This document shows positions 195 through 55,607 of a DNA stretch of 64,000 nt, one piece after another. How positions within the stretch are numbered: position 1 is the stretch's first letter; the number at the start of each line of letters is the position of its first letter. The notes under the pieces are model-generated. The model ran no database searches. It saw only the letters and a list, made by a program, of their open reading frames with translations, and was not told the origin of the DNA. Made by a program: the position numbers and the translations under genes. Source of the stretch: Seison nebaliae (taxonomy: Eukaryota); contig JALJEE010000748.1 in assembly GCA_023231475.1 (NCBI GenBank), positions 1 through 64,000 of the forward strand. The letters run 5' to 3'.

Positions 195-204
195 GTTGTG
201 TTAG

Positions 205-1937: not shown

Positions 1938-1989
1938 CTATTATTAATTATTTTATCCGTTAACTAACATCAGTCAAAAAATTTCAATA

Positions 1990-2301: not shown

Positions 2302-2323
2302 GCGATAACATTTTGGAACAAGA

Positions 2324-4628: not shown

Positions 4629-7523
4629 ATGCTTACCAAAAAGCAGAAAATTGACAGTTCATCTGGAGATATGGCAGGAAGTTTCTCTTCAATTCCCATT
4701 ACGAATTAAATGTTGATTTTCAGGTTGTTGTAATGTGGTGAATGATGTAGTGCCACACAGTTCTCTCGGATTAGTTATCGGGAAAGGCGGTTCGAATATT
4801 CGCGACTTGGAAGAACGATTCAATTGTCGCATTAATGTTAACTGAAAGAATTTTCTAAATTTTGAAGAGGTAAAAGTTTTGCTAATGTCAATTTTCTGCC
4901 AATTTACAGCTGGATAAAAATAATTCGACAGAAATGGGAGTTCCATTGAGAATTGCTGCAAAGGCGGAAAACGCACCAATCGAAGAAGCGGCGAAAGCAA
5001 TTCGTCAACAGATCGAAGAACAAACTGGAGTTAAATTCAGTAATAATTATCGTAATTCGAAAGCATTCGTTTATGGAAGGACATCCATCACTTCTTCAGA
5101 TGATCGACGAAAATGGAATTCAAATGATAAAGATGAGTGGAATGAGACTACTAGAAACAATAATTATGGTCGATCTGGAAATGATAGAAGGAATGGGAGA
5201 AGCGATAGGAATGATGATGATTTTGGAACAAATTGGAATAATTCCAGAAGAAATGATCATTATAAAGACAGGAATAATCGAAACGATAATGAGGGTTCAA
5301 AAAATTGGAATAATTGTAAAACTGATGACAATTGGAATAATTGTAAAACTGATGATAATTGGAATAATTCTAAAACTGATGACAATTGGAATAATTCTAA
5401 AATGGATGACAATTGGAATAATTCAAAGAAAAATGATGACAATTGGAATAATTCAAAGAAAACTGATGACAATTGGAATAATTCTAAAATGGATGACAAT
5501 TGGAATAATTCTAAAATGGATGACAATTGGAATAATTCAAAGAAAACTGATGACAATTGGGGAAATTCAAAAAATAATGACAATTGGGGAAATTCAAAAA
5601 AAACTGATAGTTGGCGTTCGAATAAAAATGATGATAATTGGGGTAATATTAGAGATAGTGGAAGAAATGAAAATTCCAATAATTGGAGTACAGCTTATAA
5701 GAAAAAAGAAGTGGAGAAAAGTGAAGGATGGAAGACTGATGGTGGTTGGTCGACAAATGATTGGAATAATTCTTCTAAGAATAATTTTAGTTTGAGAGAT
5801 GAAAAGAAAAATTATCGTAATGACAACAATTCGAAAAGTTCTTTTCATGAGAAGAAGGATGAAAGTTTTTATAATAGTTTCCCATCCAACGACAACGAGA
5901 ACAACAAAGATTTATTGAAATCATTAGAGAATAGTGATGGATCGATTGATTGGGGTGCGATTCGAGAGGAGATGAAAAAACCAGCTTCATTAGAACGATG
6001 GACGAATTATCAGAAAGAAATCATCAAAGATACATATCATATTCATGAAGAAGTGGAAAAGATGACAAGGGAAGATGTAGAAGAATTTCGAAAAGAAGCT
6101 CTCGATCTTATGGTTCTTGAAGGAAATGATTTACAATCAGCTTTACAACAAGGAACCACCGAAGATGGTCATGCCGTCGCCGATATTTCAAACATAAAAA
6201 TATCATCTGAATCATCTTATGAGAATGTAATGAAACCATGTAAAACATTCTATCATGCTTTCCATTCACAACCTCAAATTTTAGAGGAGATGATGAAAGC
6301 GAAATTTGAAAAACCATCACCGATTCAAAGCCAAGCATGGCCAATCGCTTTATCTGGTCGTGATTTCATTGGAATTGCTCAAACGGGAACAGGAAAAACT
6401 TTGGCTTTTCTCCTACCTGCCATGATTCATATTTGTGCTCAAACTCAACCGATAGCCGAACGATTAGGACCGAATATTCTCGTTCTTTCCCCAACTCGAG
6501 AATTGGCACAACAAATCGAACGAGAAATCGCCAAATATAGTTTTCAAGGAATTCGCAGTCTTTGCATTTATGGTGGAGGAGATCGAAGGAAACAAATCGA
6601 AATATGTCGACAAGGTGTCCAAGTGGTAATTGCGACTCCTGGTCGATTATGGGATTTACAATCCGCCAATCATATCGACGTAAAAAGTGTAACATTCCTC
6701 GTATTAGATGAAGCAGATCGATTATTAGATTTAGGATTTGAACCACAAATTCTAAAAATTCTTTTAGATATTCGTCCTGATCGACAAACAATTATGACAT
6801 CAGCTACTTGGCCTATCGGTGTACAACGATTGGCAAAGAAATATTTTACTAATCCTGTTTATATTCGTGTCGGTTCTTTAGAATTGTCTACCGTTAAAAC
6901 GGTCGAACAGAAAGTGATGTTAGTGAATGATGATGAGAAAGAAAGTGAAATTTTAAAATTATTACGAGAATTAATGAGACAAAATGAATCGATTCTCATA
7001 TTCTTTATGAAGAAAGTGACTTGTGATTTCCTCGCGGCTAAAATCGGAATGAAGGAAATTTATTGTGAAGTGATTCATGGTGGTCGAGATCAAATTGATC
7101 GAGAACAAGCGTTGGAGAACATGAGGAATGGTGATTGTAAATTATTGTTGGCGACTGATGTGGCAGCTCGTGGAATTGATATTCCAAATATCACGTTAAA
7201 TTTCATCAATTTTCCAAAATTATTTTTTTTAATTAAACATTTTTTTTTTCAGAGTTGTAATTAATTATGATTTTCCGAAAGATATGTCAGAATATGTACA
7301 TCGTGTGGGAAGAACCGGACGTGCTGGACGTAAAGGAACAGCAATTTCATTCTTCACCAAATACAATTGGTCGAAAGCGACAGAATTAATTCGAATGATG
7401 GAAGAACATGATCAATTAATTCCTGATTTCTTACGTTCCATGTCTCAGAGATTCATTAAACATCAAGAAGAGAATCCGAAAACGGATCGTTTTAATAATA
7501 ATCGTCGTCGAAATCGATATTAA
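4629..7523 (+). CDS. DDX43: KH-domain DEAD-box RNA helicase, DDX43/DDX53-like, ~906 aa, 4 exons (4629-4680, 4724-4836, 4910-7194, 7253-7523)
   Basis: Exon 2 encodes the KH motif [29 protein letters not shown]. The core has Q-motif [50 protein letters not shown] and [12 protein letters not shown]. Splicing restores [11 protein letters not shown]. Confidence 0.88.
5302..5645 (+). repeat. Coding tandem repeat, 27-30 nt unit, ~13 copies, encoding DDNW(N/G)NSK(K/M/T)
   Basis: gatgacaattggaataattc(t/a)aa... is repeated in frame between the KH and helicase domains. Confidence 0.95.
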
Positions 7524-7612
7524 TATAAGAATAATATTGTTGTTGTCGTTTTTGTTTTATTAATTAAAAATTTCATTGTTTGTTTGTTTCTTGAAAAATT
7601 TGGAAATTTCCT

Positions 7613-8615
7613 TTACAAATCCATATCGGTGAGAGCACTTATAATCGGTTGTTGGAGTAGTGCAGCTAATTCTATAGAAAGAGAATTTTTTATTTAATTT
7701 TTCATGTTTCTCATTAAACTTTTTATGGCGGTGTTTATTGCAGCTTTTGATGCTTCACCTAAAGCACTACGTCGATTGAATGGTGCAATCTTTGACAATT
7801 CGTTGATAATTTTCGAAACTTCTTTGACGATACCTTCAAAAAATTATTTGAATTTCTTTTTCTAATCATAATATGAACTTTGTACAGCAGCATTTGCTTG
7901 TGGTTGGATTGTTGATGCCAAATGATGGAGAGCAGCAAGATCACTAAATTTAAACTATAAAAATTTTCTTTATCTTAAACTGACTAACCGTTTGCCTAAG
8001 CCATTCGTAGCGATGTCATTTAAGAACTTTAAAGCGGTTGTCAAGAAACCTGTCAAATTGATGGTGAGTCAATCGCTAAATGAGGAAATAGAAACTGGCT
8101 TTGATGTTATTACCTAAATCAGTTAAGGTATCTCGTTGATCTTCTAAATCTCTAAAGAATAAAAATAAATTTTTGAATTTTCTCAATAGAAATTTAATGA
8201 ACCGTTTACCTAAACCGTTTGAAGCGATATCGTTCAAAATTTTCAATACTGAAGTTAAAACGGCTGAAATTAGAAATGTTAGTAATGGAAGAAAATTGAA
8301 AATTTATTAAAAATTATCAACTTTGTTTTACACCGTTAACTAAATTGGAAGTGATATCAGTAAAATCGGAGATAGCTCTCAAATCATCCGATTCGATGTC
8401 ACGTCGACCTAAAGTATCCAATTGGTAGCCAGCTAAAACATGTTGCAATGTATTTAATGCGGCTTATGAAACTAGATGGTGAATGAAGAATGAATAAACT
8501 AACAATGTAAACGATCTTTGAGGACATCTCTCAAATTCTGAATTGGGTCAGGTGTTAAAGGATTGGCATAAGTAAAGGCCACGAGGGCGAACAAGATGAT
8601 CATAAAAGATTTCAT
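7613..8615 (-). CDS. Secreted multi-peptide precursor, 222 aa, 8 exons (8615-8504, 8462-8322, 8263-8203, 8151-8096, 8049-7989, 7943-7879, 7833-7720, 7671-7613)
   Basis: Signal peptide MKSFMIILFALVAFTYA. Seven 41-58 nt GTT..AG introns give one open frame of 669 nt with processing sites LGRR, NGLGKR (twice) and FNRR. Exons 3 and 5 are paralogous 61-nt exons. Confidence 0.82.
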
Positions 8616-21760: not shown

Positions 21761-24700
21761 TTATGAGAACAAGTGAACGACTTAGGATTTATAAGATTTG
21801 AATTAGAAATAATTTGTTTAGCATTTGTTGTAAAAAAGGAAATTGTTGAAAAAATGTTGAATGTAAAATGAATGAACCTTGTACACATTTCGGTCTTTCC
21901 TTCGGTTTCCATTCGCCATTAAGACAAGTTGCAGCACTCGTTCCGATTAAGCGGAAGCCTTTGTTACATCGATAAATTATTTGTCTGTCATGTTTCTCAT
22001 TCTTCACATTGTGATGATATTCGTATTCTCCGAAATGTCCCACTAGAAAAATAGTGCCGTTATGTAACGTTCCAGGATGTGTACAATAAACTGAAAAAAT
22101 TTAATAAAACTATAAAAATATTTGAATTAACTGGGTTCACATGTTGGTAGTCGTCCACTCCATGCTCCATTAACACATCGGACACGATTATTTCCTTTTA
22201 GTCGATAACCAGTGAGACAAGTGTAATAGAGAATACTGCCGTTATTTCGTTTACGGAAAACGGTTTGTGACGCTTTTACTACCGGCGGTTTTCGAGTACA
22301 TTTGGCTAAAGAAGATGAATAACATTTGAATAATAATTAACAGAAAATATGAACATGGTTTACAAATGACGTCTGGTCCCCATTTCCCATCTCTCATACA
22401 ACTGAGTGCATGTTCGATCTTTTCCTTATATTTATTTTGACATTGTAAATGAATCGTTTCTCCGATACTTGCCTTTTCTTCAACTAATTTCAATCGATTC
22501 TTCTCACTCAACATATTCACCAAATATTTCTGATGAACGTTCCCATTCATGAACATTCCATAACGAATGAAACTGAGTAATCCTGTCGAATTGGCACTTG
22601 TAATCAACGACGAGAATGAACAAACATCTTTCGAAGAATTAATAAAAGAAATTTTAAGAAGCAAATAACTTTGACAAATTGGTAAATTATTGTTATTAGA
22701 CCATGTTCCATTTTTTTGACAACGATACGTGAGAGTCAAAGTAGAAGTAGAATAATTGATAAATCTCGAATTGGCATTTTCACATCCGATGACGATCATT
22801 TCATTCTCACGAAATATATAGGACGGACCAATTCTGCCTTTGAGGCCACTTTGTATTCTAATGTGATTCCTGTTCAATAATTTCGTCGTGAAATCACATT
22901 GACGTTCTGAATACATAAATATTAGAGAATAATAAACGACAGATTGAAACTTGTACATCGGAACTTTTCATGATTTCCAACCCATCTTCCTATTCCATTA
23001 ACATCTCGACATTCTGCTTCACTTTCATAAATGTCGATAGAAGTCGATTCGAATTCTTTCTTACAATTTATAATAAGTCTCGTTCCAATTTTATAACCAT
23101 ATTCATTCTCGAAAAATCGTCTTCGTCGACGTCTTCTTCTCATTCGAATGAAACGATTGGGCCATTTACTTCCCTCATTCAATCTCTTCTTTCTTCTCAT
23201 GGGAAATGGACGAGAACGTCGATGAATCACTTTTCGACGACGGATTGCTGGTGAAGAATAACGAATGTATGAATTCGTCGGAATGTCTTTCAATTGTCCA
23301 CAAGTTATAACTTTAACAATTCATTCAAATTCAACATTGAATTATTCAAATAAAAACTTTTACAAATTAAAGGAGATTTATTCCATTTGCCCGTGGTAAG
23401 ACATGTTCGTTGGACATCGCCTCGTACACGATAATAATTCGATTTACATTTATATGTTATTATCGTTCCAAAATGTAATTGATCAACGGAACGATCATTC
23501 TCCATCTTTTTATCATTCTTCATTTTAATTTCCAACATCTCAACATTCTCAATTTCATCATCTTTCTTACAAGAAATGGCTGAAATGTTTAAAATATATA
23601 ACGTTAAAAAAATTTTTTTAAATTACTTTTAAAATTTCCAAAAAATAACGTCGACAATTCGTATTAGATATCCATTTTCCATTAAGGCCGCAAATCATTT
23701 GGAAGTTTCTCTTAGCACCTATCGTCTCATAACCACGATGACATTTGAATAAAATATTTTCTCTAATTAAAAAATTCGTTTTTTTCATTTCGGAGGATGG
23801 AAATGGTGAATTTGATGATTCCACAGGATTGGCATGTTCCAATTTCGGTAGTGTTCCTTTTTGACAATTGTCTTTCAAGTTCAAATTGTTCAGGTTAAAT
23901 TGAAGTGAATGAGAAGGAAAATGAAAAACCGGATTTTATACAAGTTGGTGTTGGGCCACTCCACCAACCATCACCTTCGCAATATCGGAGGATTTTTGTG
24001 ATTGGCATTTCTTCGTTTAATCGTCTCGTTATTGTCGAGGTATAATGTTGTGATGGTGGAATTGAGATATCGGTCATAATGAAACCTGGATGACATTCGT
24101 AGAGAATTTTGGAAAATAAAGAATGTTCTGTTGACGATCCCAAATAAATGATGGTTCCATTCAATATCGGTCTCGGTTTCTCACATCTCATTTCTATTTA
24201 TATGAGACAGATGATGATGATGATGATGATGATAAATTTGAATATTATTATGATAATAATTCTAACTAGTATTAACACAAGACATACCACAATCTCCATC
24301 ACACATACAACGTCGAACGGAACTGACACAATCCTTGTCAGATCGACAAACTTTCATACATGTTCGATATTCGGTGGCATGTGGTCGTCTAGCCAAACAG
24401 TTATGTTGGGACGAATGACTTTGACGATTTCGTTTTAGATATTTCCTTCGTTTCGAATTCCTCAAACGTCGTTTTCTTCTTTCGTCGTCGTACAATTTGA
24501 AAGGAGTGGGAAATGAAGAAACGTTATCTTTTTGTTCAGTTTCATTCAAATGAGGATGACGAGTTGGAAGTGATGGAACGAGATATTGTTTGTGGAAATT
24601 ACGAACATTCTGTTTCTGTTGACGATAAATGGAACGTTGTTTGGTGGAGGCTGGACTGCAAGAAGATTTCGTACAACGTTGTCGAAATAGCAAACCACCA

Positions 24701-24798
24701 GCACTGAGTGACAGAGGAAGAAATGATGATGCCGATCTCTCAATTGATAATTCCGTCAACAACAAAATAATTATGATGCGTATGATGAGATGGAGCAT
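21761..24798 (-). CDS. lev-9: Secreted WAP + 8 CCP/sushi protein, LEV-9-like, ~838 aa, 10 exons
   Basis: Hydrophobic N-terminus and WAP domain (CMKVCRSDKDC...CMCDGDCGMSCVN), followed by eight exons that each encode one C..C..W..C sushi module with phase-1 introns. The terminal module YCTHPGTLHNGTIFLVGHFGEYEY...CLNGEWKPKERPKC resembles the conserved LEV-9 C-terminal CCP. The last micro-exon (21780-21761) is uncertain. Confidence 0.8.
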
Positions 24799-38500: not shown

Positions 38501-41500
38501 CTTACAGGTTCGTCTTTTTTATTCTCATTATTCATCTTCTTTATTATCATTAATTCTATTTATATTTTTTCTAAATTATTATCTTCAAACAATTACATAT
38601 ACAGTATATTTCTGTTTCGTTGTCTGTTTTTCTCCATTTTTTTTTTCAAAAAAAATTTTAAGTAAAATTTCATTTATTTTTATCTTTTTCGAACGAGAGA
38701 GATTTATTCTTTCCTCATCCAATTTTTTCTTTTCAATAATTATAAGTAAAACTTCATTTATTTTTATCTTTTTCGATGATTATAATTTGGTCATGAAATA
38801 TTCTCGACAGAGACTTCCTTTTCTCATAGAACATTTTCTTTTCTTTTAATATAATTTTTTAAATATAAATCGAATTTATTTGTTGAGGAATAGCAAAAAA
38901 AAAAGAAAAAAAGAGTTTAGCATTCAAATCGTTTGATGGATTCTTTAGAATCGATAAGTCCAAAAAATAAAAGTCCTTGTGGTGTGTTAATGTTGACTCG
39001 TTTATAACCTTGTTTGTAATTGGTGGGAGTAGGTTGGGGAGTGATTGCATATTTCACTTCACCTGATAATGTCAAGATGGAAACGGCAGCAGCATCTGGA
39101 TCAATAACGATCACATCCTCCGAATTCAACATAGCCACTCCACAACTCATATCGGAAATATTATTATCCATATTATCATTCGTTCGATCACTCTCTTTTG
39201 ATAATGATCGATCGAATTGTTGTACTAAATCAACATCAGCAAAATGAGCATGACGTTTTCTTTGTTCATCATGATTATTATTATTGTTGTTGTTGTTCTT
39301 ATCTAGAGTTAGAGTTGATAGATTAAGACTAGAAGCGATACTAGCAGATTCCAAATATAAATTATGATCATCTACTTGTTCACATTCGTCGACTTGTTGA
39401 ATTTGTTTAGTTTGTGTTGAAACGTCAAATTCTTTTTGTTGTTCCTTCCTCGACATCGACGATGTTATTGTTGATGATTTAACAAGATCATGAATCATTC
39501 GAATATCTGTTTGTGATTCTTTCTCCAAAATGAAATTGTGAATCATTCGCCATCGATATAATTGTGTTCCTCTCTCATAATTGGTGGCTCGATCTTTCAT
39601 CTCCTTTTTCACTTCTTCAATTCTATTGGAATCAACTCTCGTTGGTGTTAATTCATTCTCATCACCATTACCATCATCATCATTACCATCATCATTATCA
39701 TCATTATGAAGTTGATGCCATTGACGTGGTCGACGTCGTTCTTTCTTTCCTTGATTATTTGTTGGAGGAAGTGATATAAGAGATATTTTATCTATTGGTT
39801 TCGACAAATTAGTTCGATCGTCATTTGATGAACATGGTGATAATCGACCGAATTCGATGGAATTACTAAGAAATGTCAAATGGAATTGGAATCCTGTATT
39901 CATATTCGATTCTTTTAATTCATTCCATAACGAGTTGTTGGACATTATATCAAATTTTTCCAAAATCTTCTTTTTCAATAATAATAATTCAACATCGTAA
40001 TTCTCGACGGCCAAATGAGCAAGAGAACAAGTTTGTTTCAATTCTTCTAAATGTCTTTCTACCAATTCCTTCTTTCGTATAATACTATTTCCATCTTCTC
40101 CATAATATTTGTGGAGTTGTTCAATGACTGCCGTTTCACTTTCTCGAATGATTTTCACATATTGTGAAGCAGATTCATGGATCTTATTTTCCGTTTGTAA
40201 CATATGTAATTGACAATCTTTCATGACCATCAAATAATTATTCAATTCATCCATCTCTTTCCTTCCACTATTCAATGCAGCCATTAATGTTGATCGATGT
40301 TGTTTGACTCCTTCATGGAAATCGAGTAATTCATGATCACTATGTTGAGTGAAAGTGCAAATGACACAGACACATTCATCACATCGTTCACAAAAGAATC
40401 GAACATTCTCTGATGGATGAATTGAACAAGTCGCCACACTTTCCATATTCAATTCATAAAAAGTGTGAGTGGCAGTAATACGAAGTGAACGATGTTGTTG
40501 AGAACATTGCTCACACATCAATTTATTACAATCCACACATTTACATGTGGCTAAATTATCGATCTTTTTTGTCTGACGACAAATATCGCAAAAGGATTTG
40601 GGAACGGTGGATCGTCGTTCTTCTCCTTTACGAATCATTTCCGTCAGATTTTTTATAACGAAATTATCTGGTAAAGCATTAACGCCTGATAATGGTATTT
40701 TGGTCTTTTGACGACAGAGTGGACAAGAGAAATCTTTCCCACCAAACTTATAAGAGGAATTGAAAGACTTTCGCGAATTTGAATATATTCCATTCTGGAG
40801 ATGTTCAAGAATACAAACCCCACAGAAACTGTGAAGACATGAAAGTGCTTTCGGATCTTTATATCGTTCCAAGCAGATTTTACATGTTAAGAATTCGTCA
40901 CTAATCTCTTGGGTGAGCGAACGAATGTTGATGGGGTGATTGGCAGTCATAGAAGAAATAGAAGGAAAAAAAATCGCCGTTCACAGACAGACACTCCAAA
41001 AGGTGAAATGATGAATGTGTGGGATAATGAGAGAATATGTGTGTGTGTGTGTGTATGAATTGAAATTGAAAAAATTTACCTATCGATATATCGATGTTCG
41101 TTAGGGGAGTGTGACGTTAATGATGATTTATCCTCGAACATTCAATCTCCCGAAATATTTTGATGATTGTAAATGTGTTTAATTCGACGGAGGCGATACA
41201 TAGTAGCAGATTGATTAGGCCGTTCTTGTTGTTGTTGTTGTTGTTGTTGAGGGAAATGTTAGAATAACAATAAATAAAAATAAATAATGAATCAGTTTGT
41301 TCTCGGACGAATTATTTCCCAAATTTCACTTCCCAATTATGATTGATTTTGGGAGAGATGAGAATCCATCATCATAATCATCGCTTCTTCTTTTCCTTTA
41401 TCCCTTTCAACTTTCTCCTCTGGAAGATGAAGGAACACAACATTAACTGTAATTCAATTCACTCTCCCAATCGAAGACTATTTTATTAATGAGGGAATGG

Positions 41501-44319
41501 TTGAGGAGAAGATTATTCTTCTCCAATTACACATTCCATTCTATTCCATTCAACCAATTCAACCAATTCAATCGTTCACATTCCAATCGCTTTCTTTTGT
41601 GTCTCTCTGTGTTTGTGTGTGTGTGTGTATTTTGTGTAATTGAGAGTGAGTGAAGGTCTTCTGGAACTAAATAAATTCATTTTATTGATCATTTCCACAG
41701 AACTATAATTCATTATGCATTTCCTTCTCCATCTTCTCTATTTCCTAATCTTCACATTTATCTCTTTATCTTTTTTTTCTCTTTTTTTTTTAAATATTAT
41801 TTATATACTCTCAATGTTGTTGTTGTTGTTGTTGTTGGTTGATTGGTGAATAATAATGTATAATTATTTTTTGTGCAGATATCAATGCAGTTTTCAATCC
41901 GAGAGAAAGTCGAAGAAGATTCTCCATCGGTTCTACGTCGTCGAGAGCAACGTTCAATATCGAGAATTATAATGACAGAGATAGAACGTATATTTTTCAA
42001 AGAGAAAATGCTTATGATGAATATCCGGAAACGGATAGTTCAAATTATTCCTCTACATCAGCTGATGGCAATGATGATGATGATGACGACGATGATGATG
42101 ACGATGATGATGATCGTATGGACTTGGATGATAGAGGAGAAAGTGAGAGCGACTTGGAAGAAGAACAATATGTATCGGAACATCCACATGAAAATAGAAG
42201 AGGAAGAGGGAGAGTAGTAGAAAGAATGAGATTTCCAGGTGACCGTGACAATCCTCGAGAATTGTTGTTCGTCGGCAATTTCTCCCAACGAATCTTATCG
42301 TCATCTGAACGATCATTTACTTCAATTTCATCTGATGGTTCGGCGAACACGGAGAATGATTCATCACAATCCTCCATTTCTGGAATATCGGACAATCATG
42401 AGAATCAGGAACAATTAGAACGTCTTCATAATTGTTATAATTTCACCGATTTCTTCGAAGGACCAATTCGTTTGACTTTCCTCACTGGATCCAATTTAAG
42501 TCTTCATGAAGTCGTTTATCAAATCAGAAATCAAGGTGGAATGTTAATGAATCGTTTGAATGATGGTGAAGGAGATGGTGAAGGAGATGAAGATGAAGAT
42601 CAAGAAATGGCTGAAGTTCATGATTCTGAAGATGATGATGATGATGATGATACACATTTGGAAAGTAGTGAAGGAAGTGATGATGGAGAAAGTAGTGACG
42701 ATGATGATGAAGACGAAGAGAATGATGAAGAAGATGATGATGATGAGGAAGAAGAAGAAACAGATCATCATTTATATAATAGTGGATTAATAGGTGCCGA
42801 TAGTTCCACCGATGATGATAATGATCATTTGAATCGGAATAATATTGATAATCGTCATACTGATGAACAAATGGAAGGAAATGAGAATGATGATGCCGAT
42901 TGGAATCATTTGGTTAATTTGGATTCGGTGCCAATGGAAGAATGTCCTCCAATACCAGATGATATAGAAGAGAATCATAATAGTAATAATTATCGATCAC
43001 AACAACATCCATTTCAATCCAATCAACAATCTCAACATCAGAGACCAATGATTGAAGATGATGAAGAAGTGCCGATATATGAAGTAATTGATGATGGACA
43101 TGATGATGATAATGGTAATGGAAATATTAGAAGAGATGAAGATGGTGAAGATTCCGATGCTCCAATTGGACAACCAATCGAAGAATTATATAGTGATATT
43201 GATGATGAGAATGATGAGAATTTGGAAGAGACAACTACTTGGTCATTAAATCCAACAGAATTCCTTAATCAAATGACTTCTGATAATTCATCAAATCATA
43301 TGGTATCATCATCATCTGATACGATCAATCCAACAAATAATAATAATAATAATAATAATAATGATCACATTTTCTCTGAAACATCAACAACAACGAGAAA
43401 TATTCTCGATTTCCTTAATGATAATAGTGAAGATAATGAAGTGAATAATAATGAGGATAATAATGAGAATAATGGAAATGCATCTGGTGATACGACAAGA
43501 GAACGTGAAATGTTAATTCATGTCATTGATGATTTATTGGATCCAGGAATGATGGAATTGGTTCTATCAGGAAATGGAGAAATTGTAGAAGATATCATTC
43601 CACATACACGACATAATGTTGGTGATGATGATAATGGGGCTGATTTTGGAATAAACGAAGATGACGAAGAAGATGATGATCAATTTTCAGAAGAAGATGA
43701 TGATGATACGATAAATGAACAAGATGATGAAGATGAGGAAGATAATGAAAATTCGGAAAGTGACAATTATTCGACACATAGTGAATCATCAAATATTATC
43801 ACGATCGATCCTCGAAATGATGATGACGAAACTTATGATTATGTAGATGAAGATATTAATCCCACAGACAACAATCAACGATATATAGGCGATATTGATG
43901 AACCGATTGAAACGACGTTACATTTCGATCCTCAAGAAGTTCCCACATGGAGTTCACGTCGTCATGATGAAATCTTTCGAGTTTTCCAATTAAATATGAT
44001 CAATCGTCGACGTCGAAGTAATGCTCGTCGATTATTGAATAGTCAAGGACCACCGATGGCACAAGCCTTACAAACTAATATGAATTCATTCAACACTCTT
44101 TATGATTTCTTTAACGATTCTCACACATATCGACCATATCGAACATTATTGAGATATGATGATCGTTTACGATCAAATATCGGTCTCTTAAATGGACATC
44201 GTCATAATCGTAATGGAAGAAGTAGTTTTATACGTTCTTCTCACACTTATTTTCGATTCGATGATGAGAATAATAATAATAATAATGGAAATGGAAATAA
44301 TAATAATAATAATAATGGA

Positions 44320-44356
<37 letters not shown>

Positions 44357-44358
44357 GA

Positions 44359-44392
<34 letters not shown>

Positions 44393-46449
44393 GAGGAAAT
44401 GGTCGTGGAAATATATTTTCACGTCGGAATATGTTGACACCATCATCGACTGGTGGAATGGTGATAACGGATGAAACGAATAATATGAAACAAACACAAT
44501 TCGAGAAACACATTTGGCCAGATAATGATGATGAGATTATTAACGAATTCGCTCAACCATTGACGGTGAATCATTCGATTTTATTAGAGACGTCATTGAA
44601 GAAATTGGAACGATGGCATTTTGGAGATCGAGAAGAGATTTCTGATGAGAAATTAGAGGAACGTAATCGACAGAAAGATGAATGGGGAAGTGAATTAATT
44701 AATGGATATATTAATGCTTTCAAATCACCATCAACCAGTTTAACAGCTGCACCAGGAACATTATCTGCACGAACATCACCAGGTGATGGTTTCTCCATTG
44801 AACATGTTGTGGGAAAGAATGGAAAAATGACTGATCGATATCGATTATGGGATTTGGAAGTGGAACGAATAAAATCGTCGAATGAGAAAACATTTTTCAT
44901 GGCGAACAAACCATTGAAGACAAGATCATTCCGTTATACGGCTGATGAATTTATTCCACCATTCCGAAATGGTTCAGCATCCAAAACGAATATTTGGATC
45001 GATTCTGATGATGATATTAGTGATAATGATCAAAATGATGATGAAATGGCAGTTGAACATACGATCGATGTGAATAATTATACATATCTTGTTTCTGATG
45101 AGAAATTGGAAAAAGGACATGAAACGACTGTGAAGAATTATTATGGATTATGGGCAACAAATGAAATTCTTCGTCCATTATTCAATTTCTTATTAAGAAA
45201 TAGTCCAAGAGATGGAACTTATATTCATTCGTCGTCATGGCAACGATGGAATGAAGCGAGTGCATTATTAGATGGAGCATCTGTTGTTGATGTTGTATCA
45301 ATTATGAGACAATTATTTTGTATTTCTATGACATATTATCATGTGGAAATGAAGAAGATTTTAGGGAATGGAAGAATATTTTGTGGGAAACGATTAGTGA
45401 ATTATAATAGAAAATCAAAAGATAAACGACAATCAAATGACAATATTTCTAATAACAAAACAACAATAACAACTACTACTACTACTACTACAACTACTAC
45501 CAATTCGACAACAACACGATCATCTACTATGTCTAATATTAGAACGGTGAATGTGCAACCAGCAATTGTAACGAATAGAAGAAGTACGAGAAATCGGAGA
45601 ACGAAATCGAAAAGTCAAACGATCAATTCAATTAAAAGCGATGTAGATATGAGTGAAGAAACGGAGAAGATTGTTGGAAGTTATATGACGATCGGACAAC
45701 GAGTTAGTGCGAGAAGAAATAGAGGAAATAAGATGTTGGAAACAACAGTGAAGACACCACCAACACCACGTGAAGTTCATTGGAGGAAGTTGTTGGATTT
45801 GAGATCGAATCAATATTTCTTCACTTATCTTTATTTTACGAGTAAATTTCCCAATGGGAATTCGGGTGAACGTTCTATGTCAACATATATGGAATCTTAT
45901 ATGCTCATGTCGAATAATTGGATGAAGAAATTCGAGAATGTGGACAGACGAAGAAAGGATCAAGAAGAATTCATGAGACGCTTCAAACAAAGTCAATTCT
46001 TCGTTGGTGATCAATTCGTAATGGATACAATCGGAATTAATATGGATGAAATGAAATCAGAAGATGAAGAAGGTAATCTCGATCTGATTATGGGCAAATA
46101 CTTCGAAGAACATCGGGCTGATGATGACGAAGATGAGGATCCATGTTCCGTCTCATTAGATGTCATACAATATCGTTGTGAAATATTTTATACGGAAGAA
46201 CAAAAATTATATCAATCACAAATCATTGAAGAAGGTAAAAGGAAAGTTATGGAAAAGAATCAAATTATTTCTAATGAATTAATCGATTCAAGTGAAAATG
46301 ATAAAAATAATCACAACAATAATAATAATAACAACAACAATAATAATAATAATAACAACAACAATAACAACAACAATAACAACAACAACAATAACAATAA
46401 TAACAATAACGAGAATAATAATGATGATGAAGAATTTCTTTCGAACAAC

Positions 46450-46521
<72 letters not shown>

Positions 46522-47136
46522 CAGAATAATAATAATAATAAGAATAAAGATGATGAAGAAGAAGAGAATGAGGAGGATGAAAATGAAGAGAATATAAAAG
46601 TTTTTGGTGAAACGACTTTAGATGATGAGGATGATGATAGTGAAAATGGAGGAAATGAAATGATGGATGTGAGTGAAATGGAAAATAAAGAAAATGAAAA
46701 TGAAACGAAGGAAGAAAAGAAAGAAGAAAAGAAAGAAGATGATGAGAAGAAAGAAGATGAAGATTATTTTATTTTCAATTATTTCGATCATTCTATCAAA
46801 GTTCCGAATATGGTTGATCGTTCATTTCTCGAAGCATTACCTACGGCTTTGTTGGACGACGTTCTAACACAAGTCAACGTATCATTACCATCAACCAAAG
46901 ATTACGTACCAACCAACATTACCACTACAGTAACATCAACGATTGCATCAATTACATCAGTAGAAGGAAGGACAACAACGTCAACTGATCAATCAGTCGT
47001 TCCTGCGTCGGAAGAAGATATGTCGAATATCATAAGACAGGAATTGAATGATTTTCTTATGGCCTTACCGTTACGTATATTGGAATTCGTTAATCGAAAT
47101 GAAAGAGATCAATCACTTCGAATACAGACTACTTCG

Positions 47137-47169
<33 letters not shown>

Positions 47170-50100
47170 TCCACCATCCCTCCTACTACTTCGACTACTT
47201 CAACGAATTTAGCAGAAATGACTCGATTAGTTAATTCGATGTCACATGAGACAACAACAACAACCATTCCATCAACAAACTCGTCAGCCACTGATCAACC
47301 CGAATGGTTTTTCCAACAAATATTGGATAGAATGGCAAATTCGGAAGCAAATATCTCTTCAACAACAACAACAACATCATTAGTTTCATTGTCGTCATTA
47401 GAAACGATAACAGCAACAACAACAACAAGACCACGAATTAATTTTATTAATAATGAAAATGAAAATTCTTCAAATCAAAATCAATCATCTCAATTATCAC
47501 AAGATTATGGTGATGTATTATTTGAAATAGCGAATCTTCCCATTCCCACAAGTAGAGTCATTCTCTCCGATTCAGAAACATCGATCGATTCTTTATCAAC
47601 ACGAATTCCTTTCCAAACAACAACAACAACAACATCATCTAACGGTTTACCAACAGGACCAATATCATCATCAACAACAACAACAACAACATTATCATCA
47701 TCATCGTCAACAGTTTCCTCAATAACAATGACGTCGTTGAATGCCGCTTTCCGTCAATGTAATGACACTTTCAGTGATGCCACTCAAGTGTTTGTGGATC
47801 GAACGATAAATTATTTGATAGAAACGACAGAAAATTTCATTGAAAATTTAATAGCGATTAATGGAACGTCATTCATTTCTACCATTAACGAAGTGATTAA
47901 TTCGATGACGACGGATTTGGCAAGTGGTGAGAATCGATTTTTAAATATTTTGGAACGTGTACAAAATCCGGAGCATAGTCTCGATGATTTGACACCAGAA
48001 GAACGACGTTTATTTGCTTCTGATATTTTGAATTTATGCAATCGATTATCAGAACATTTGAACGATAATTCTGATACTATTTCAGATGAAGGAAATCCTA
48101 GAGCAATTGTTTCATTAACATCTCTCGATCAACTCACATCAACATCAGGAAATGGTAGTCAACCATTCCGTATTACTTATCCATTCCGTAATGGAACATC
48201 ATCAATTATCACTTCAATTGATGGAACATCAACGAATAATCATCCAACTACTTCTTCCACTCTCATACCACCACCGTTATTTTTATTTTTTTGTTTAAAT
48301 TTTAAAATCTTTTTTTTTCTTTAGAGTATCGATGCCATTACCAAGAATTATTACATCAACACGACAACCAGTCGTATCACAACGACCAAGAGATACATCG
48401 ATGCCATGTGATTTCCTTCGAGATATGCCACAAGCATTACGTCGACAATTAATGGCTGATATGAGAACAGAAGATCTTCAATTCCTTCCATATGATTTGA
48501 GATTGGAAGCAGAATCTGTTATTGATCATGGTGGCGCTGGTGGCGGTGGTGGTGGTGCTGCTGCTGCTCAAGGATATCATGGTTTAATTTCATTCAAAAT
48601 TTTTATTAAATTTAATAAATTTATTTTTTTATTTTTTTACAATTCTTTAAACTCTTTCTCAGCTTTAGATCCTAACAACAACAATAATAATGGAGATGAT
48701 GGTGGTCATATGAGAAATGATCCCTCACAAGATCAACTTCATCGAATGAACGAGAATATGTTTCAGCAAGCACTATCACGAAATAATCGACAATATGTTC
48801 GTCGAGGTGATGGGATAGTTGGTGGACGATTAACACGACAAGTTGGTGGAAGTCGAGAATCTGGTGATCCGAGATATACATCATTAAATTTGAGAACATT
48901 ACGAAATACAATTATTGGAAATAATTATCCACAATTCAGTTTATGTATGTTCTTCTATTATAATTTATTACGATCACGAACATTTTATGCAAATGCTGAA
49001 CGACTCTTTCAGAAGACTCATAAATTTATTTCATTCGAAGATATTTATAATTTCTTAACACTCGTCGATGTTTCAGTACCGATTTCATCTGTTAATGAAA
49101 CATTGAAGACATATAATGGATCGCCATACACATATATCGATTCGAATTGGGGAATCTTTATATCCGACGTGCAAATTATGTTGCCATCAATCATTATGGA
49201 GAATATGAGATATACACGATCATTATTTGGAATTGATGGTGGTGGTGGTGGTGATGGTGGTGGTGATGATGGTGGTGATGATGATGATGGTGATATTGAT
49301 GGTGATGGTGATGGTGGTGATGGTGATGGACCTGGTGATGATAATCATCGAATTATTCCGTCTACAACATCCAATTCGATTGTATCATCAGCTGATAGAC
49401 GAGAAATCGCTCTCGAATTACGACGAGCAATGTTCACCACCACACAAACAGCAACAACAACAACAGTTACAGTAACAACGACAACAACAACGACAACAAC
49501 GAGAAATGAACCGGTTGTTATACCTGGACCTGTTGGGACGAATTTCGCAGAGAATGAGAATGAAAGAAGAATACGAAATGATTATGAAGAGAATTTCCGT
49601 CTCTACAATTGTGTCTTACCAATGTCTGATGTACTTACAACAGAACCACCACCAATATCAGATGAACTAGAATTAAATGAAGAGAATAATACGAGAATTG
49701 ATGAAGTTTTACAACAATTAAGACGAGAAATAACAGCAGCTGAAATAGTGAGAGAAGCAGATAATTTGAATTCAGCATTATCCAATGTTATCAATTCATT
49801 GGAAAGATGGCAAGATAACATCACAACGGTAGTGGACGCATTACAACCAGTTCCATTAGAATCACAAATATTATTTGGAGGTGAATCAACAAGACTTGGA
49901 GGAGGAATAATATCATCAACATCATCATCATCAAATCGTAATAGAAATCATCCAACACAAATTTCTGTTAATCAAACAACATTAACAAATTTAATTCATT
50001 CAACATCTAATCATCCAACAACAACAGGAGTAATAGCAAGAACAACAACAACATCATCATCGGCAGCAAGAACAAGAACAACAAATAGAATAAAACCATC

Positions 50101-53100
50101 ATTAGATCAACAGAATGATGGAAAGAAGAAGAATCGAAAAGTGTATCAATCAAGATTATCGGAAAGTGAATTGGATGTTGATGGTGAGACAGCAATAGAA
50201 ACATATCGTCGTTTATTCTTGACGGGATATCGAGGAGAGAAATTAATTGAAGAATATTATGAGAATTTGACAACGATTTGGACACAAATTCGAGACAATA
50301 ATGAGAATAGTCGAGGAAATGATGATGATTTCGATGAAGATGATGATAGTGTTCACATCGAATATAAAGATTTATATGAGATCATTTTCCGTCAACTTCA
50401 TCATTTTCCCATCAATATGACTCTCTTCAATTTTCAATTACATACGATGCCGAAACAATTTGAAAGGAAGAAAATAAATTCGTTACAATTAGCACAAGAT
50501 ACTTTGCCTTCTTGTATTTTCACTTCCATTACATTGGAAGGATTGACATGTATTCTCGTTCCACTTCTTCTAAATGATCGTGATTTGACACAAATGCGAT
50601 TTCTCCGTTTACTTCAAAATATTTCTGATCATAAAGCAACTCATGATTGGATTGTTTCATCATTATTATCGATAATAGAAATGGCTCATTTCAAATATCC
50701 GTTAAACGATTTTTGTGTTTCTGAAGAGAAATCGAAAATTGTCATTCGATCATCAACACGTCGAAAGAATCAGAAAGATTGTTTTATCATTTATTCTCCT
50801 GCATGGCTCAATTATCGAGTACCGATGTCATTAGGAGAAAGAACATCAGTATTGAATTTCCATCGGAAATATAATTTAGAACAGAAGAAACCATACGGTT
50901 CCATAAGAATCGCTTTCAATCCGATTGTTGCTCCAAAAATTGTAAAATCAGTAATGAAATGTCTTTATTGGTTACATGAATATTCGCCCGCCAGTGTCTG
51001 GCGACATTTACCAGATTATTCGGTAGCGAAGAATATTGGAGAGAATGCGAAAAAGAAATTATTACCAATCTCTTCATCGATGAATCATCAATTGACATTT
51101 TGGGATTTCATCATTCGATTTGAAATGGAAAATGGCAATTTCGTCGGTCCACCACCAACCGTCATAGAAGATTTGACAGAATCGATAGATGAAGAAATGA
51201 AAATGGATGAATCAATTACGATGATTTCGAACGATATAAAATCATCCGATAATAATAATGGAGATGATACGATCATTTCAACAACATCAGAAATATCTTC
51301 GAGACAATTCATATTGAAAAATCGAAATAATAAAGAAATCGTATTAACGGTTCATGATGAGACGCCTCGATCATTGACAAAAATCAATCCAGCAAATCAT
51401 CATCTTCATCGTACACGTCACAAAATGAAACGTCCGTCAACAACAACAAAAAAACAACTTCGATCATCTTTCCCACATCATACTCAATCGTTAATGGTCA
51501 TACCAGAAAAGGGAAAGAATCAGATGATGGAAATTCCACGAATTCAAATGACTCATCATGACAATCAATCGATACCATCAATAATATCATTAGATTTCCT
51601 CATTTTATTAGAAATGATTCAAATGAGAATTTCAAATCCGATTTTTATTAAACCATCTGATTTTCATTTTTATTCTCTTCCCAAATCTATCGAAACGGAT
51701 CGATCACTCCAAAATGGTTTTTTCGATTATCGATTAATTCAATCAGATGCCACATGTGCTAAAGACGATTATCATACGTTATTGAATATTGATAGTGCGA
51801 TGAAATATTTAACGGAAAATAAATGGAAATCTCGAAATAATTTCCATCATATTCTCATTTATCGATTATTTTCCATGTTACAATTGGACGCAGTTCGTAC
51901 CAGTAAAGATGTTCTCGATTTATTAATCGAATTAATTTCATTAATATCATTCGAAATTGGTGAACAAAGACCAATGCCAACAGGAATTGAAGCGTATCGA
52001 GGAAATGTCATTCAATCGATAAAATCGGCCGATTATATTGAAATAATTCCAAGAATTTGGCAAGGATTCTATCAACAAATTCTCAATCCGGATGAACCAT
52101 ATAATACCAATGTTCCATTTGGTTATAAGAAGGAAATAGAATTGATTGTGAATGTTTTGAAAGGAATCGATACATTCGAAGAATACGATGAAGATTATGT
52201 CATTGGTGATTTGAATAAGAGAGCGATCGTTTTATTTAGTATGTTGATCGAACCTAAATTTATGTTTCCTGCACAAAAACCATCAATTCAAGATTATGAT
52301 TTATTACAATTATTATTGAATCGAATTGTTCGACCGACTCATTCGATTAATGAGAAGAATTTGAAGACACTCGAATTATTTTATTCGATGAATCATTTGA
52401 CAGATATCGAAATTTCGAGAGATATCTTCTCTTGGCTTTATGCTTTCCTTCGCGAACATCTCTACATTCTCCCACCACAACAATTGGAGAGATGGATCGA
52501 AGTCACCACTCAACGATTAACATCGAACGACGGTTTATCCTTCGTTCTCCATACAACATTCGCTTTCGCTCAATATAATTATCCGACGGCGAGATTAATT
52601 TTGAATATTTTAGAAAAAGAATTCCTCAAAGTGGCGATCGGTTTAACGAAAGAAGTTCGTCAATTAACCAACGAAATGAAATCATATCGAGCCAAATTAA
52701 ATGCGACGACTGAAGGACATGATAAATCAGCAGCTGGTCCCGGTCCATCCACTGATGATAAGAAAAAGAAGAAAAAGAAGAAACATGTCAATTTGGATAA
52801 TTCGAATCAATTAAATAAGAAACATATTGGAAATGTCGTTCTTGATGATACAGGACGTCCAATTATCATAAGTAAATCTGATGTTGTCTCTCAAACTTTA
52901 GATGTGAATTTGAAGACGATTCGACATTTCTCTCAACGTACCTCACAACAAGTCTTCTTCGCCAAAATGTTAGAAGCGATTTCCGTTTTACGGAAATATG
53001 TCGATGGAATTAAAACGCCATTTACTCTCATCCATATCACATCGAAACGAATGAGTGTTCTCACTGTGATTATTCGACAAGTTTTCGAATTACTCTCTCA

Positions 53101-54876
53101 ACAAACATTCAATGATGAGAATGAAAGATGTAAAAATTTCCTAATGGTAATTGATGATATTCATCGAATACTTTTCAGATATTTTATTCGATTGAGAAAT
53201 GCACAATTCCAAGAGAAATTCATTACGAAAAAACAGAAAACAGAAAAAGAATTGATGAAAGATGAATCGATTGATATTGATGGTAATTCATCATTAGATG
53301 AAACTTTTGGTTTTTTACCAACATATTTATATTCAGATACGAATATTCCTATTCAATTACCGAATGATAATGATCAAAATAAATATCTTCGATTGACGTT
53401 GAGTTTGAAGGAGTGTATGAATTATAAAATTATGGATGCAGATTATCTTCCACTTTCCTGCAACGGAAAAATGAAAGATAATTATTGTTATTGTTCAATT
53501 CCATTATATCGAACGTCGGAAATGGAGAATTTGTGGAAAGGACTTGATGAATGTCTAACAGAAATGGCTCAATTTAGTTCTGATGTGAATTTAGTTCTCG
53601 TTCTGGAGAAAACTATCAAATCTTTCTTTACCATTCTCTCAACTTATGATTCGTCAGAGGATACGAAACGTTTCAAGAATTTATTTTTTCAAACATTCAA
53701 AGAACGTTCATATGAAGCTGTTTTGAATGAATGGGAGAAAATACGACCACCATCATCATGGTCCGATAATGACTCAACAACAACAACAACAACACAAATA
53801 GATGAAGAACGGTTACGACCTCATTTAACAACAACAGCGAGTACGAATGGAGTGACAACGATTGGTGGAATACGAGGAATACATATACCATTGACTACTA
53901 TGACAACGGCACAAATAGCTCCAATTCCATCAACTGGATTCAAGAATAATAATCGGAATGCGAAGAACGTCCAATTCTCTCATATCAATAATGTAACGAT
54001 GTTGGACGATTTGAAACATTTGTACAAAGTGAAAAAATTGACGAACGAAGAAATTATGAATTATATTAAAAAATATTTTGCGGAACGTCCAAACGTCGCC
54101 AAATATCCTTCACACGAAGTCCAACGAATTGTCCAATTCGGAAAGAAACATCGTGCTCTCATTAATCAACTGATTCGAACATGTGGTGGACGACTTCAAC
54201 GATCAACATTTGCCACTTTCAAAAATTATCCGCATATTCTCGATTTCGATGTTAAACGAGAATATTTCCGTCAAAATCTCGATAAATCTCGAAGAAGACA
54301 ACTTGGAATTCAAGTTCATCGTGAACGTGTATTCGGAGAATCATTCTTAACATTAGCCAATCTACCCCCAGAAAAATGGAAGTCTCAATTCTTCATACAA
54401 TTCTCAGGTGAAGAAGGACAAGACGCTGGTGGATTACTTCGTGATTGGTATCTCGTGATGGCGAAGGAGATCTTCAATCCCAATTATGCGCTCTTCATGT
54501 TAAATCCGAGTGATAAAGTGACATATATGCCACATCCAGCCTCTCATGTCAATGCTGATCATTTGAAATATTTCAAATTTGTCGGTCGATTAATCGCCAA
54601 AGCAATTTTCGATAATAAACATCTCGATTGTCATTTCACTCGAGCATTCTACAAACATATTTTGGGTAAACCCGTCAGGTTTCATTTTTCATTTTTTTTC
54701 TCATCTTTCTTCAATTTCTTTTTTTGATCTTTTTTCAATTTCTTTTTAGTTATACTGATATGGAAAGTGTCGATAATGATTATTATAAAAATTTACAACA
54801 TTTATTAGAGAATCCAATTAACGATATGTATATGGATATCAATTTCACAGTCGATGTTCATCATTTATTTTTTTTC

Positions 54877-54910
<34 letters not shown>

Positions 54911-55607
54911 TTAGATTAATCAATTTGGTGAGACGAAAACCGTTGCGCTGATTCCGAACGGTGAGAATATTATGGTGACGGATGAGAATAAACACATGTT
55001 CGTCAAATTAGTTTGTCAGGAGAAGATGATTGGAGCGATCCGAGACCAAGTACATCATTTCTTAGAAGGTTTTCATTTCTTATTTTCCATTCATTTAAAT
55101 TGGATTCAATATCGACAGGATTTTATGAAATTATTCCAAAGAAAATGATTTCCATATTTAATGAACAAGAATTAGAGTTATTGATTAGTGGATTGCCAAC
55201 GATCGATATCGATGATTTAAAACAGAATACCGTCTATGTCAGATATCGAACAACATCGCCACAAATCGTATGGTTTTGGGAAGTTCTACGGGCCATGGAC
55301 GAACAAGAGAAAGCGAAATTCATTCAATTTGTTACAGGAACATCGAAAGTGCCATTACAAGGATTCGCTCTCCTCGAGGGAATGAGTGGAATTCAAAAAT
55401 TCCAAATTCATCGAGATAAACAATCAACCGATCATTTACCATCAGCACATACATGGTTATTATTTTAATTTTAATCCTTTTTATTTAATTTATAATATTT
55501 TCTTCAGTTTCAATCAACTCGATCTTCCCGAATATGAAACAAAAGAGAAGTTAAAGAAGATGTTGTTGATCGCAATCAATGAAACTGTCGGATTTGGTCT
55601 AGCCTAA
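29330..55607 (+). CDS. HUWE1: HECT E3 ubiquitin ligase HUWE1/Tom1 ortholog, ~7,514 aa, 8 exons (29330-38507, 41879-48275, 48325-48581, 48663-54678, 54750-54855, 54915-55068, 55119-55455, 55508-55607)
   Basis: N-terminus [11 protein letters not shown] is similar to HUWE1 MKVDRTKLKKT. DUF908/913-like ARM region ([17 protein letters not shown]), WWE-like WLTYSPN...YGIDFGTM, and UBM-like [14 protein letters not shown] domain [17 protein letters not shown]...[13 protein letters not shown]...[16 protein letters not shown]...ETVGFGLA, with the catalytic Cys codon split by the last intron. Confidence 0.92.
38917..40950 (-). CDS. TRIM E3 ligase (RING, B-box1, B-box2, coiled coil, one NHL-like remnant), TRIM2/3/56-like, nested antisense in HUWE1 intron 1
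   Basis: [32 protein letters not shown]...CPLCR; B-box1 CDIC...[17 protein letters not shown]-box2 [35 protein letters not shown]-like [15 protein letters not shown]. Single 677-aa ORF. Confidence 0.9.
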   Translation of the reverse strand: MTANHPINIRSLTQEISDEFLTCKICLERYKDPKALSCLHSFCGVCILEHLQNGIYSNSRKSFNSSYKFGGKDFSCPLCRQKTKIPLSGVNALPDNFVIKNLTEMIRKGEERRSTVPKSFCDICRQTKKIDNLATCKCVDCNKLMCEQCSQQHRSLRITATHTFYELNMESVATCSIHPSENVRFFCERCDECVCVICTFTQHSDHELLDFHEGVKQHRSTLMAALNSGRKEMDELNNYLMVMKDCQLHMLQTENKIHESASQYVKIIRESETAVIEQLHKYYGEDGNSIIRKKELVERHLEELKQTCSLAHLAVENYDVELLLLKKKILEKFDIMSNNSLWNELKESNMNTGFQFHLTFLSNSIEFGRLSPCSSNDDRTNLSKPIDKISLISLPPTNNQGKKERRRPRQWHQLHNDDNDDGNDDDGNGDENELTPTRVDSNRIEEVKKEMKDRATNYERGTQLYRWRMIHNFILEKESQTDIRMIHDLVKSSTITSSMSRKEQQKEFDVSTQTKQIQQVDECEQVDDHNLYLESASIASSLNLSTLTLDKNNNNNNNNHDEQRKRHAHFADVDLVQQFDRSLSKESDRTNDNMDNNISDMSCGVAMLNSEDVIVIDPDAAAVSILTLSGEVKYAITPQPTPTNYKQGYKRVNINTPQGLLFFGLIDSKESIKRFEC
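44269..44391 (+). repeat. (AAT)n coding microsatellite, poly-Asn with Gly interruptions, in HUWE1
   Basis: Direct reading of aataataat...ggaaat blocks. Confidence 0.95.
46315..46540 (+). repeat. (AAT/AAC)n coding microsatellites, two long poly-Asn tracts, in HUWE1
   Basis: Direct reading; in frame within exon 2. Confidence 0.95.

What the first reader, a model, noticed from the sequence alone, without database searches (positions are those of the whole stretch)
8195..8215. Canonical-looking GTA donors inside exons are bypassed in favour of adjacent GTT sites
In the peptide gene, exon 3 contains TTAG|GTAAAC (GT at 8209, minus strand) 7 nt upstream of the GTTCAT donor needed to keep the GKR motif and frame. 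The paralogous exon 5 has GGC at that codon yet splices at the equivalent point. Similar unused sites are TTAG|GTAATA in exon 4, GTAAGC and AG|GTAATT in SLC6 exon 4 (~19027-19042), and G|GTAGGA 22 nt before the CERK GTTATG donor. This suggests GTA is actively disfavoured, not merely that GTT is tolerated.
Basis: partly seen in the sequence, partly recalled or inferred. Interest (0 to 1): 0.7.

Follow-up and report, generated by a model that had tools for sequence, protein, structure and literature searches.

The report
Animal introns start GTT, bypassing GTA
In this stretch of the small marine animal Seison nebaliae, 45 of 46 modelled introns begin GTT instead of the usual GTA/GTG, and textbook-looking GTA sites inside exons are passed over in the gene models, likely because its splicing machinery has been retuned to read a U at the third intron base.

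Summary
The sites are real. The window's proteins match NCBI proteins named Seison nebaliae. At the focal site the annotated product keeps GKR by splicing at GTTCAT (8202) and ignores TTAG|GTAAAC (8209).

Of 46 modelled introns, 45 start GTT, 1 GTC, and none GTA or GTG. One annotated GTA intron was excluded because homology shows it is coding. Profiles without Seison sequences rank the GTT parse first in 10 of 11 introns tested.

AG|GTA is only mildly low (8 vs 10-11), as in control organisms.

So the donor code is shifted to GTT. Active disfavour of GTA is not shown: there are no RNA reads, and loss of recognition explains the data. The SLC6 examples lie about 100 nt from the donor, and frame does not force the focal choice.

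Likely mechanism: a changed U1 snRNA, as in Entamoeba; untested. I found no animal precedent in 8 literature searches. The scan noted GTT donors before in Bonamia and another protist.

The parts
7613..8615 (-). Secreted repeat-peptide precursor gene (NCBI SNEBB_000948), 8 exons; all 7 introns start GTT; two annotated isoforms differ in the intron-1 acceptor
8204..8213 (-). Focal unused site TTAG|GTAAAC in exon 3 (GT at 8209-8208); it encodes part of L-G-K
   Evidence: 7 vs 4 pairs to a canonical U1 end compared with the used donor
8152..8202 (-). Intron 3 (51 nt), donor CG|GTTCAT; splicing keeps G-K-R-D-L
   Evidence: both annotated isoforms; same position as intron 5 in the next repeat
8108..8117 (-). 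Unused TTAG|GTAATA in exon 4 (GT at 8113), 18 nt before the donor; in frame with the same acceptor
8050..8095 (-). Intron 4 (46 nt), donor CA|GTTTCT
7944..7988 (-). Intron 5 (45 nt), donor CG|GTTAGT, paralogous to intron 3; the upstream codon is GGC
17811..20239 (+). SLC6 transporter gene (SNEBB_000950), 9 introns, all GTT
19027..19042 (+). GTAAGC and AG|GTAATT inside a conserved SLC6 exon, 102-112 nt upstream of the GTTCAT donor at 19139
21505..24798 (-). Sushi-repeat gene (SNEBB_000952), span from start codon to last acceptor; 9 introns, all GTT
57109..57295 (-). Last intron of the ceramide-kinase-like gene, donor AA|GTTATG; the unused G|GTAGGA is at 57317
57832..57876 (-). 45-nt GTA-starting intron in the NCBI model (SNEBB_000957); left out of the count because removing it deletes conserved residues (62.8 vs 101.0 bits)
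4681..7252 (+). DEAD-box helicase gene, span of 3 hand-placed introns, all GTT
9807..13683 (-). SNF2-family ATPase gene, span of 5 hand-placed introns, all GTT
20752..21354 (+). TMCO1 gene, span of 4 hand-placed introns: 3 GTT and the single GTC donor (20752)
38508..55507 (+). HUWE1 gene, span of 7 hand-placed introns, all GTT; the four HECT-domain junctions fit the human HUWE1 sequence

Best explanation
The modelled introns of this animal begin GTT almost without exception, and GTA/GTG sites in exons are likely skipped because they no longer fit the donor reader, most likely a U1 snRNA whose base opposite intron position +3 has changed from U to A. Shown by sequence and homology: +3 T in 45 of 46 introns; exon ends rich in (A/C)A(A/G); loose +4 to +6 with two favoured hexamers, GTTCAT and GTTAGT; AG|GTT purged from exons. 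Inferred: with A opposite +3, a U pairs, a C is a tolerated mismatch (one GTC donor; AG|GTC partly depleted) and a purine breaks the helix next to the GU. Also inferred: the short introns (median about 50 nt) are defined across the intron, so the best GTT site at a suitable distance from the AG wins. No repressor of GTA is needed. U5 and U6 pairing seems otherwise ordinary, since +5G donors lack -2A (the known two-class pattern). The predicted U1 pairing segment is ACUAAC (complement of GTTAGT) or AUGAAC (complement of GTTCAT).
For: Donor table: +3 T 45, C 1, A 0, G 0 of 46. Homology-only test: the modelled parse ranks first in 10 of 11 introns; the best GTR alternative is 0.7-35 bits worse in the 7 introns that had one. 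In 21 of 31 introns with a GTA/GTG competitor within 40 nt, the competitor pairs as well or better with a canonical U1 end (strictly better in 12), yet it is not the modelled donor. AG|GTT is the most depleted of 889 5-mers in coding DNA, and this repeats in HUWE1 alone (0 vs 7.3) and in the other genes (2 vs 11.0); it is not depleted in 24 control frames (49 vs 41). GTC is rarer than intron composition predicts (1 vs 10, P 1.6e-4), which fits an A rather than a G partner. GTTCAT 9 vs 0.9 and GTTAGT 5 vs 0.5 expected; -2A in 2 of 9 +5G donors vs 28 of 37 others, P 0.005. Precedent: Entamoeba GUUUGU donors with a U1 changed to ACAAAC and an unchanged U6 ACAGA (bioRxiv 10.1101/2022.06.08.495308).
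Against: Several lineages with atypical donors keep a standard U1 (yeasts, Thecamonas, Micromonas). There are no RNA junction reads. 19 of 46 introns were placed by hand and 27 come from an annotation that has at least one wrong intron. AG|GTR is mildly depleted in exons (25 vs 35), so purine sites may keep some activity. The reverse complement of AG|GTT is also somewhat low (5 vs 9.4, z -1.8), and a direct sense-antisense comparison was not significant (P 0.67). One window, 8 intron-bearing genes.
Confidence: 0.5

Rival explanations
1. The donor code is shifted to GTT, but U1 is standard. The +3 U is read later or by protein: a changed U6 ACAGA box, U-G wobble with the normal U6, or altered or lost U1-C, Luc7 or Prp8 contacts.
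For: +3 T is fixed in both donor classes. Roy and Bowser note that GUUUGU can pair more fully with the normal U6 ACAGA, and that other lineages with atypical donors keep a standard U1.
Against: A G opposite +3 would favour GTC, which is rarer than composition predicts (1 vs 10). The one published +3U lineage I found changed its U1.
Confidence: 0.27
2. Ordinary cryptic-site bypass. GTA donors still work and occur in a minority of introns. GTT dominates because of T-rich short introns and drift, and the named sites lose only on context or intron length.
For: Unused exonic GT sites of every kind are common. AG|GTA depletion (0.70-0.79) equals that of the control organisms. The NCBI model holds one GTA intron. 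The SLC6 sites are far from the donor.
Against: 0 of 46 purines at +3 although A is 31% of intron interiors. The one GTA intron deletes conserved coding sequence. 17 of 46 introns have an in-frame stop-free GTR option that is not the modelled one. AG|GTT is about nine-fold depleted in exons.
Confidence: 0.1
3. One reading: GTA sites are recognised and then actively rejected, for example by a GTA-binding silencer or by proofreading after U1 binding.
For: 0 of 24 nearby GTA sites are used, including sites with 7-7.5 canonical U1 pairs.
Against: GTG behaves the same (0 of 30). No factor or signal for repression was seen. Loss of pairing explains the same data with fewer assumptions.
Confidence: 0.08
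4. The GTT excess is an artefact of gene models (annotation training, or my hand placement).
For: No RNA check was possible; 19 introns were placed by eye.
Against: Non-Seison profiles and human HUWE1/TMCO1 alignments fix the junctions independently. 29 of 46 introns have no stop-free in-frame GTR option within 24 nt. The exon k-mer signal depends little on exact junctions.
Confidence: 0.03
5. U1 binds in a register shifted by one base (GT-T-NNG type donors).
For: Such donors begin GTT. An earlier scan note describes them in another genome (unchecked).
Against: A shifted register predicts G at +6; only 2 of 46 donors have it.
Confidence: 0.02

Closest known systems
Entamoeba GUUUGU(U) donors with a co-evolved U1 snRNA (Roy and Bowser, bioRxiv 10.1101/2022.06.08.495308; abstract, Introduction and parts 1-2 of 3 of Results read)
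   Same: GT-AG introns with U at +3 in nearly all donors, in place of the usual purine.
   Different: Entamoeba has one strict hexamer (88-90% GUUUGU) in an intron-poor protist. Here +4 to +6 are loose (24 different hexamers in 46 donors; GTTTGT never seen; GTTCAT 9, GTTAGT 5), exon-side information is kept, genes carry 2-9 modelled introns, and the organism is an animal. The U1 change is shown there and untested here.
Canonical U2-type donors and the two-class U5/U6 pattern (Parker, Fica and Simpson 2025, PMC11732430; passages read)
   Same: GT-AG ends, an (A/C)A(A/G) exon end, and compensation between -2A and +5G.
   Different: The U6-type class there is GURAG. Here it is GUUAG, and no purine was seen at +3.
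GTT donors in Bonamia ostreae and another protist
   Same: Near-exclusive or frequent GTT donors in short introns.
   Different: Those are protists, with GTTT or GTTGCGT consensus and in Bonamia introns of about 20-30 nt. Here the introns are 41-81 nt in 40 of 46 cases, in an animal.

Membership tests
U2-type spliceosomal introns | GT...AG ends with a pyrimidine-rich 3' end | tested here: met
   46 of 46 modelled introns are GT-AG (the mapping allowed only GT/GC-AG); -3 is C 20, T 20, A 6; T-rich upstream
U2-type spliceosomal introns, canonical donor | Purine at +3 (GUAAGU consensus) | tested here: not met
   0 of 46
U2-type spliceosomal introns | Removal from the RNA at the modelled junctions | not testable with these tools
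   No RNA run was listed; X1 and X2 behave as DNA
Entamoeba-type transformed donor | U at +3 in nearly all introns | tested here: met
   45 of 46
Entamoeba-type transformed donor | Strict GUUUGU(U) hexamer | tested here: not met
   GTTTGT 0 of 46; 24 different hexamers
Entamoeba-type transformed donor | U1 snRNA 5' end complementary to the new donor | not testable with these tools
   No snRNA in the window; no genome held
Shifted-register (+1) donors | Consensus displaced by one base, G at +6 (criterion recalled; also named in scan notes) | tested here: not met
   +6 G in 2 of 46
U12-type introns | Extended RTATCCTT-like donor (recalled) | tested here: not met
   No donor has A at +3

The most novel reading that the evidence does not exclude
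Seison nebaliae is an animal whose major spliceosome has been re-coded at the donor: its U1 snRNA reads GUU (pairing segment AUGAAC or ACUAAC, possibly with U1 favouring GTTCAT and an unchanged U6 favouring GTTAGT), so the textbook GTAAG signal is no longer a splice site in its genome.
Probability: 0.45. Interest if true: 0.85.

Novelty: new variant of a known kind. Interest (0 to 1): 0.67.

Why it matters
The +3 purine is one of the most constant features of animal donors (general knowledge). A switch to U in an animal with multi-intron genes would be a natural experiment on what reads +3 (U1, U6 or protein), and on how a genome's introns and the spliceosome can change together. Roy and Bowser describe that question as open and had intron-poor lineages and one amoeba to address it. 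The prediction is cheap to test: one Infernal search of the public assembly for U1 and U6. In practice, gene predictors with standard donor models can mis-call this genome, as the CERK GTA intron suggests.

Tried and rejected
Junction reads: no RNA holder was listed. X1 and X2 laid on 1-20000 cover introns without joints and behave as DNA; this is no evidence either way. A second lay at lower likeness, meant to see donors in a possible second lineage, returned nothing, so conservation of the donors between lineages is open. Rfam gave 5 weak hits and no snRNA.

Rotifer comparator: a scan with a bdelloid SLC6 found nothing. An alignment scan gave 80 loci, almost all intron-free frames, so donors in bdelloids, monogononts and acanthocephalans are untested. 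24 of the 80 loci served as k-mer controls; their organisms are unknown, they were chosen by profile score of 480 or more, and spliced junctions can add AG|GT counts.

A plain synonymous shuffle showed all GTA words depleted because TA is avoided, so it was replaced by a shuffle that keeps codon-plus-next-base counts. GTTCAT and GTTAGT alone are not depleted in exons (20 vs 21, 4 vs 3), nor is AA|GTT (49 vs 49), although 15 of 46 donors are AA|GT.

The upstream part of the CERK gene was not found. The peptide precursor had no Pfam hit and only a weak Atlas lead (0.77, an unnamed rotifer cluster). Fixed-register duplex energies were too noisy to use.

Full report
Organism and data. The window is AT-rich animal DNA. 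Searches with exon frames returned NCBI proteins named Seison nebaliae that map letter for letter onto the window: the peptide precursor SNEBB_000948 (two isoforms), SLC6 SNEBB_000950, a sushi-repeat protein SNEBB_000952 and a CERK fragment SNEBB_000957. All statements on use or bypass therefore rest on gene models, homology and sequence statistics.

The named sites. Both annotated isoforms splice exon 3 at CG|GTTCAT (8202) and keep G-K-R-D-L. The next repeat splices at the same point, where the upstream codon is GGC, and the first repeat reads G-R-R-D-I without an intron. Counted against an 11-nt canonical U1 end (recalled), the unused 8209 site makes 7 pairs and the used one 4; at exon 4 the figures are 7.5 and 6. 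First, the 8209 site is not excluded by frame: it gives stop-free products with four downstream AGs (the nearest removes exactly GKR, though through a GAG acceptor of a kind seen in 0 of 46 introns), and retention of the 51-nt intron is also open. Second, the SLC6 sites at 19027 and 19037 lie 112 and 102 nt from the donor.

The donor set. I modelled 46 introns in 8 genes: 27 from exact mapping of annotated proteins and 19 by hand in the DEAD-box, SNF2, TMCO1 and HUWE1 genes, each giving an open frame. +3 is T in 45, C in 1, and A or G in none; GTT makes up 40% of GT+N sites in the window (P 3e-17). One annotated intron was dropped before the count: a 45-nt GTA intron in CERK, whose removal lowers the score against a CERK profile from 101.0 to 62.8 bits. 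With it, the annotated donors are 27 GTT and 1 GTA. I did not model 1-4.5 kb, 14.1-17.8 kb, 25-27 kb, 55.8-57 kb or 58-64 kb, nor any UTR intron.

Independent check of junctions. Profiles were built from 82 of 117 non-Seison SLC6 hits and 144 of 149 CERK hits (those under a length limit). For each of 11 introns all stop-free in-frame GT/GC-AG pairs within 45 nt were scored. The modelled parse came first in 10; in the unconserved SLC6 tail a GC donor led by 0.5 bit. The best GTA/GTG option was 0.7, 7.5, 8.0, 18.1, 26.8, 31.4 and 35.0 bits worse in the 7 introns that had one. Some introns had only 1-2 options, so rank alone is a weak test there. Alignments to human HUWE1 and TMCO1 chains run up to and resume at the modelled junctions. 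29 of 46 introns have no stop-free GTR option within 24 nt; 17 do.

Competition. Among GT sites within 40 nt of a true donor and at least 36 nt from its acceptor, used/unused counts are GTT 45/28, GTC 1/18, GTA 0/24 and GTG 0/30. In 21 of 31 introns with a purine competitor, it pairs as well or better with canonical U1. This is not independent of the models, but it shows the focal case is general and covers GTG too.

In 38,706 coding bases, with third bases shuffled so that protein and codon-plus-next-base counts are kept, AG|GTT is 2 vs 17.9 (0 of 500 shuffles as low), AG|GTC 4 vs 11.0, AG|GTA 8 vs 10.2 and AG|GTG 17 vs 23.3. AGGTT is the most depleted by ratio of 889 5-mers, first of 714 in HUWE1 alone and third of 695 in the other genes; AGGTA ranks 180th. 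The T share among AG|GTT plus AG|GTA is lower than expected (P 0.006). In 24 intron-free SLC6 frames of other, unidentified organisms (48,690 bases) AG|GTT is 49 vs 41 and AG|GTA 21 vs 29. So AG|GTT is purged here and not there, as expected if it is enough to trigger splicing. Against the strong reading: the AG|GTA ratio in the window (0.70-0.79) equals the control ratio; pooled AG|GTR is 25 vs 35 under the within-gene shuffle; the antisense word is also a little low (5 vs 9.4) and the direct sense-antisense test is not significant; AA|GTT and the hexamers alone are not depleted.

Shape of the signal and mechanism. The exon end prefers A at -2 (30 of 46) and A or G at -1 (35 of 46). GTTCAT (9 vs 0.9) and GTTAGT (5 vs 0.5) exceed intron composition, GTC falls short (1 vs 10), and +5G donors mostly lack -2A (2 of 9 vs 28 of 37, P 0.005). 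The last is the U5/U6 two-class pattern described by Parker et al., so those contacts look ordinary while +3 U is fixed in both classes. The simplest reading is a Watson-Crick partner A opposite +3, most likely in U1 as in Entamoeba. This step is inferred, and several lineages with atypical donors keep a standard U1. A shifted register is unlikely (+6 G in 2 of 46). Nothing here requires active repression of GTA.

Literature. Eight full-text searches found no description of donor sequences in Seison and no animal with GTT-dominated donors; the library lacks most subscription papers, and figures are not held. Seen: Roy and Bowser preprint (abstract, Introduction, two of three parts of Results; supplements closed); PMC8351084, PMC10125929, PMC10599564, PMC11732430, PMC11347168 and PMC10158995 (passages only; supplements not opened, and they could hold splice-site logos); the other papers as listings only. 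That GTT is a sizeable minority donor in some short-intron animals such as nematodes is recalled, not checked; whether other rotifers share the trait is untested and could lower the novelty. Earlier scan notes report GTT donors in Bonamia and another protist; three other look-ups found nothing.

Verdict. The claim of active disfavour is unproven and not needed. It is a new variant of a known kind, surprising in an animal and testable with one snRNA search and one RNA-seq mapping.

Noticed in passing
window 38508-41878 (+) and 38920-40980 (-): A single-exon RING/B-box (TRIM-like) gene lies on the opposite strand inside a 3.4-kb intron of HUWE1.
   Followed up: partly
window 29330-55607 (+): The HUWE1 model is about 7,500 aa with exons of up to 9 kb and long low-complexity insertions; the human chain in the PDB has 4,374 aa.
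   Followed up: no
window 7613-8615 (-): Signal-peptide-like start followed by repeats ending in G-K/R-R, which resembles a precursor of amidated helical peptides. No Pfam hit; weak Atlas lead to an unnamed rotifer cluster. Two annotated isoforms differ by 10 residues through alternative acceptors of intron 1.
   Followed up: partly
window 57000-58100 (-): Only the C-terminal part of a ceramide kinase is detectable; no upstream kinase exons were found up to the window end. The NCBI model is 131 aa with a doubtful GTA intron.
   Followed up: partly
window 15195-16070: High-depth repeated region (summed depth up to 148-225 against about 9-18 in genes) with a short tRNA-like GC-rich stretch near 15380-15410 seen by eye; no Rfam hit there.
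   Followed up: no
window 4090-4210: Long inverted repeat, about 30 bp arms; its weak Rfam microRNA hit is below threshold. It lies at the end of a multi-copy region (1-4.6 kb) that may be a transposon remnant.
   Followed up: no
all 46 introns: G is scarce in intron interiors (7%), and no acceptor has G at -3, while 6 of 46 are AAG.
   Followed up: no
window 5300-5650 (+): Tandem [12 protein letters not shown] repeats in the N-terminal part of the DEAD-box helicase.
   Followed up: no
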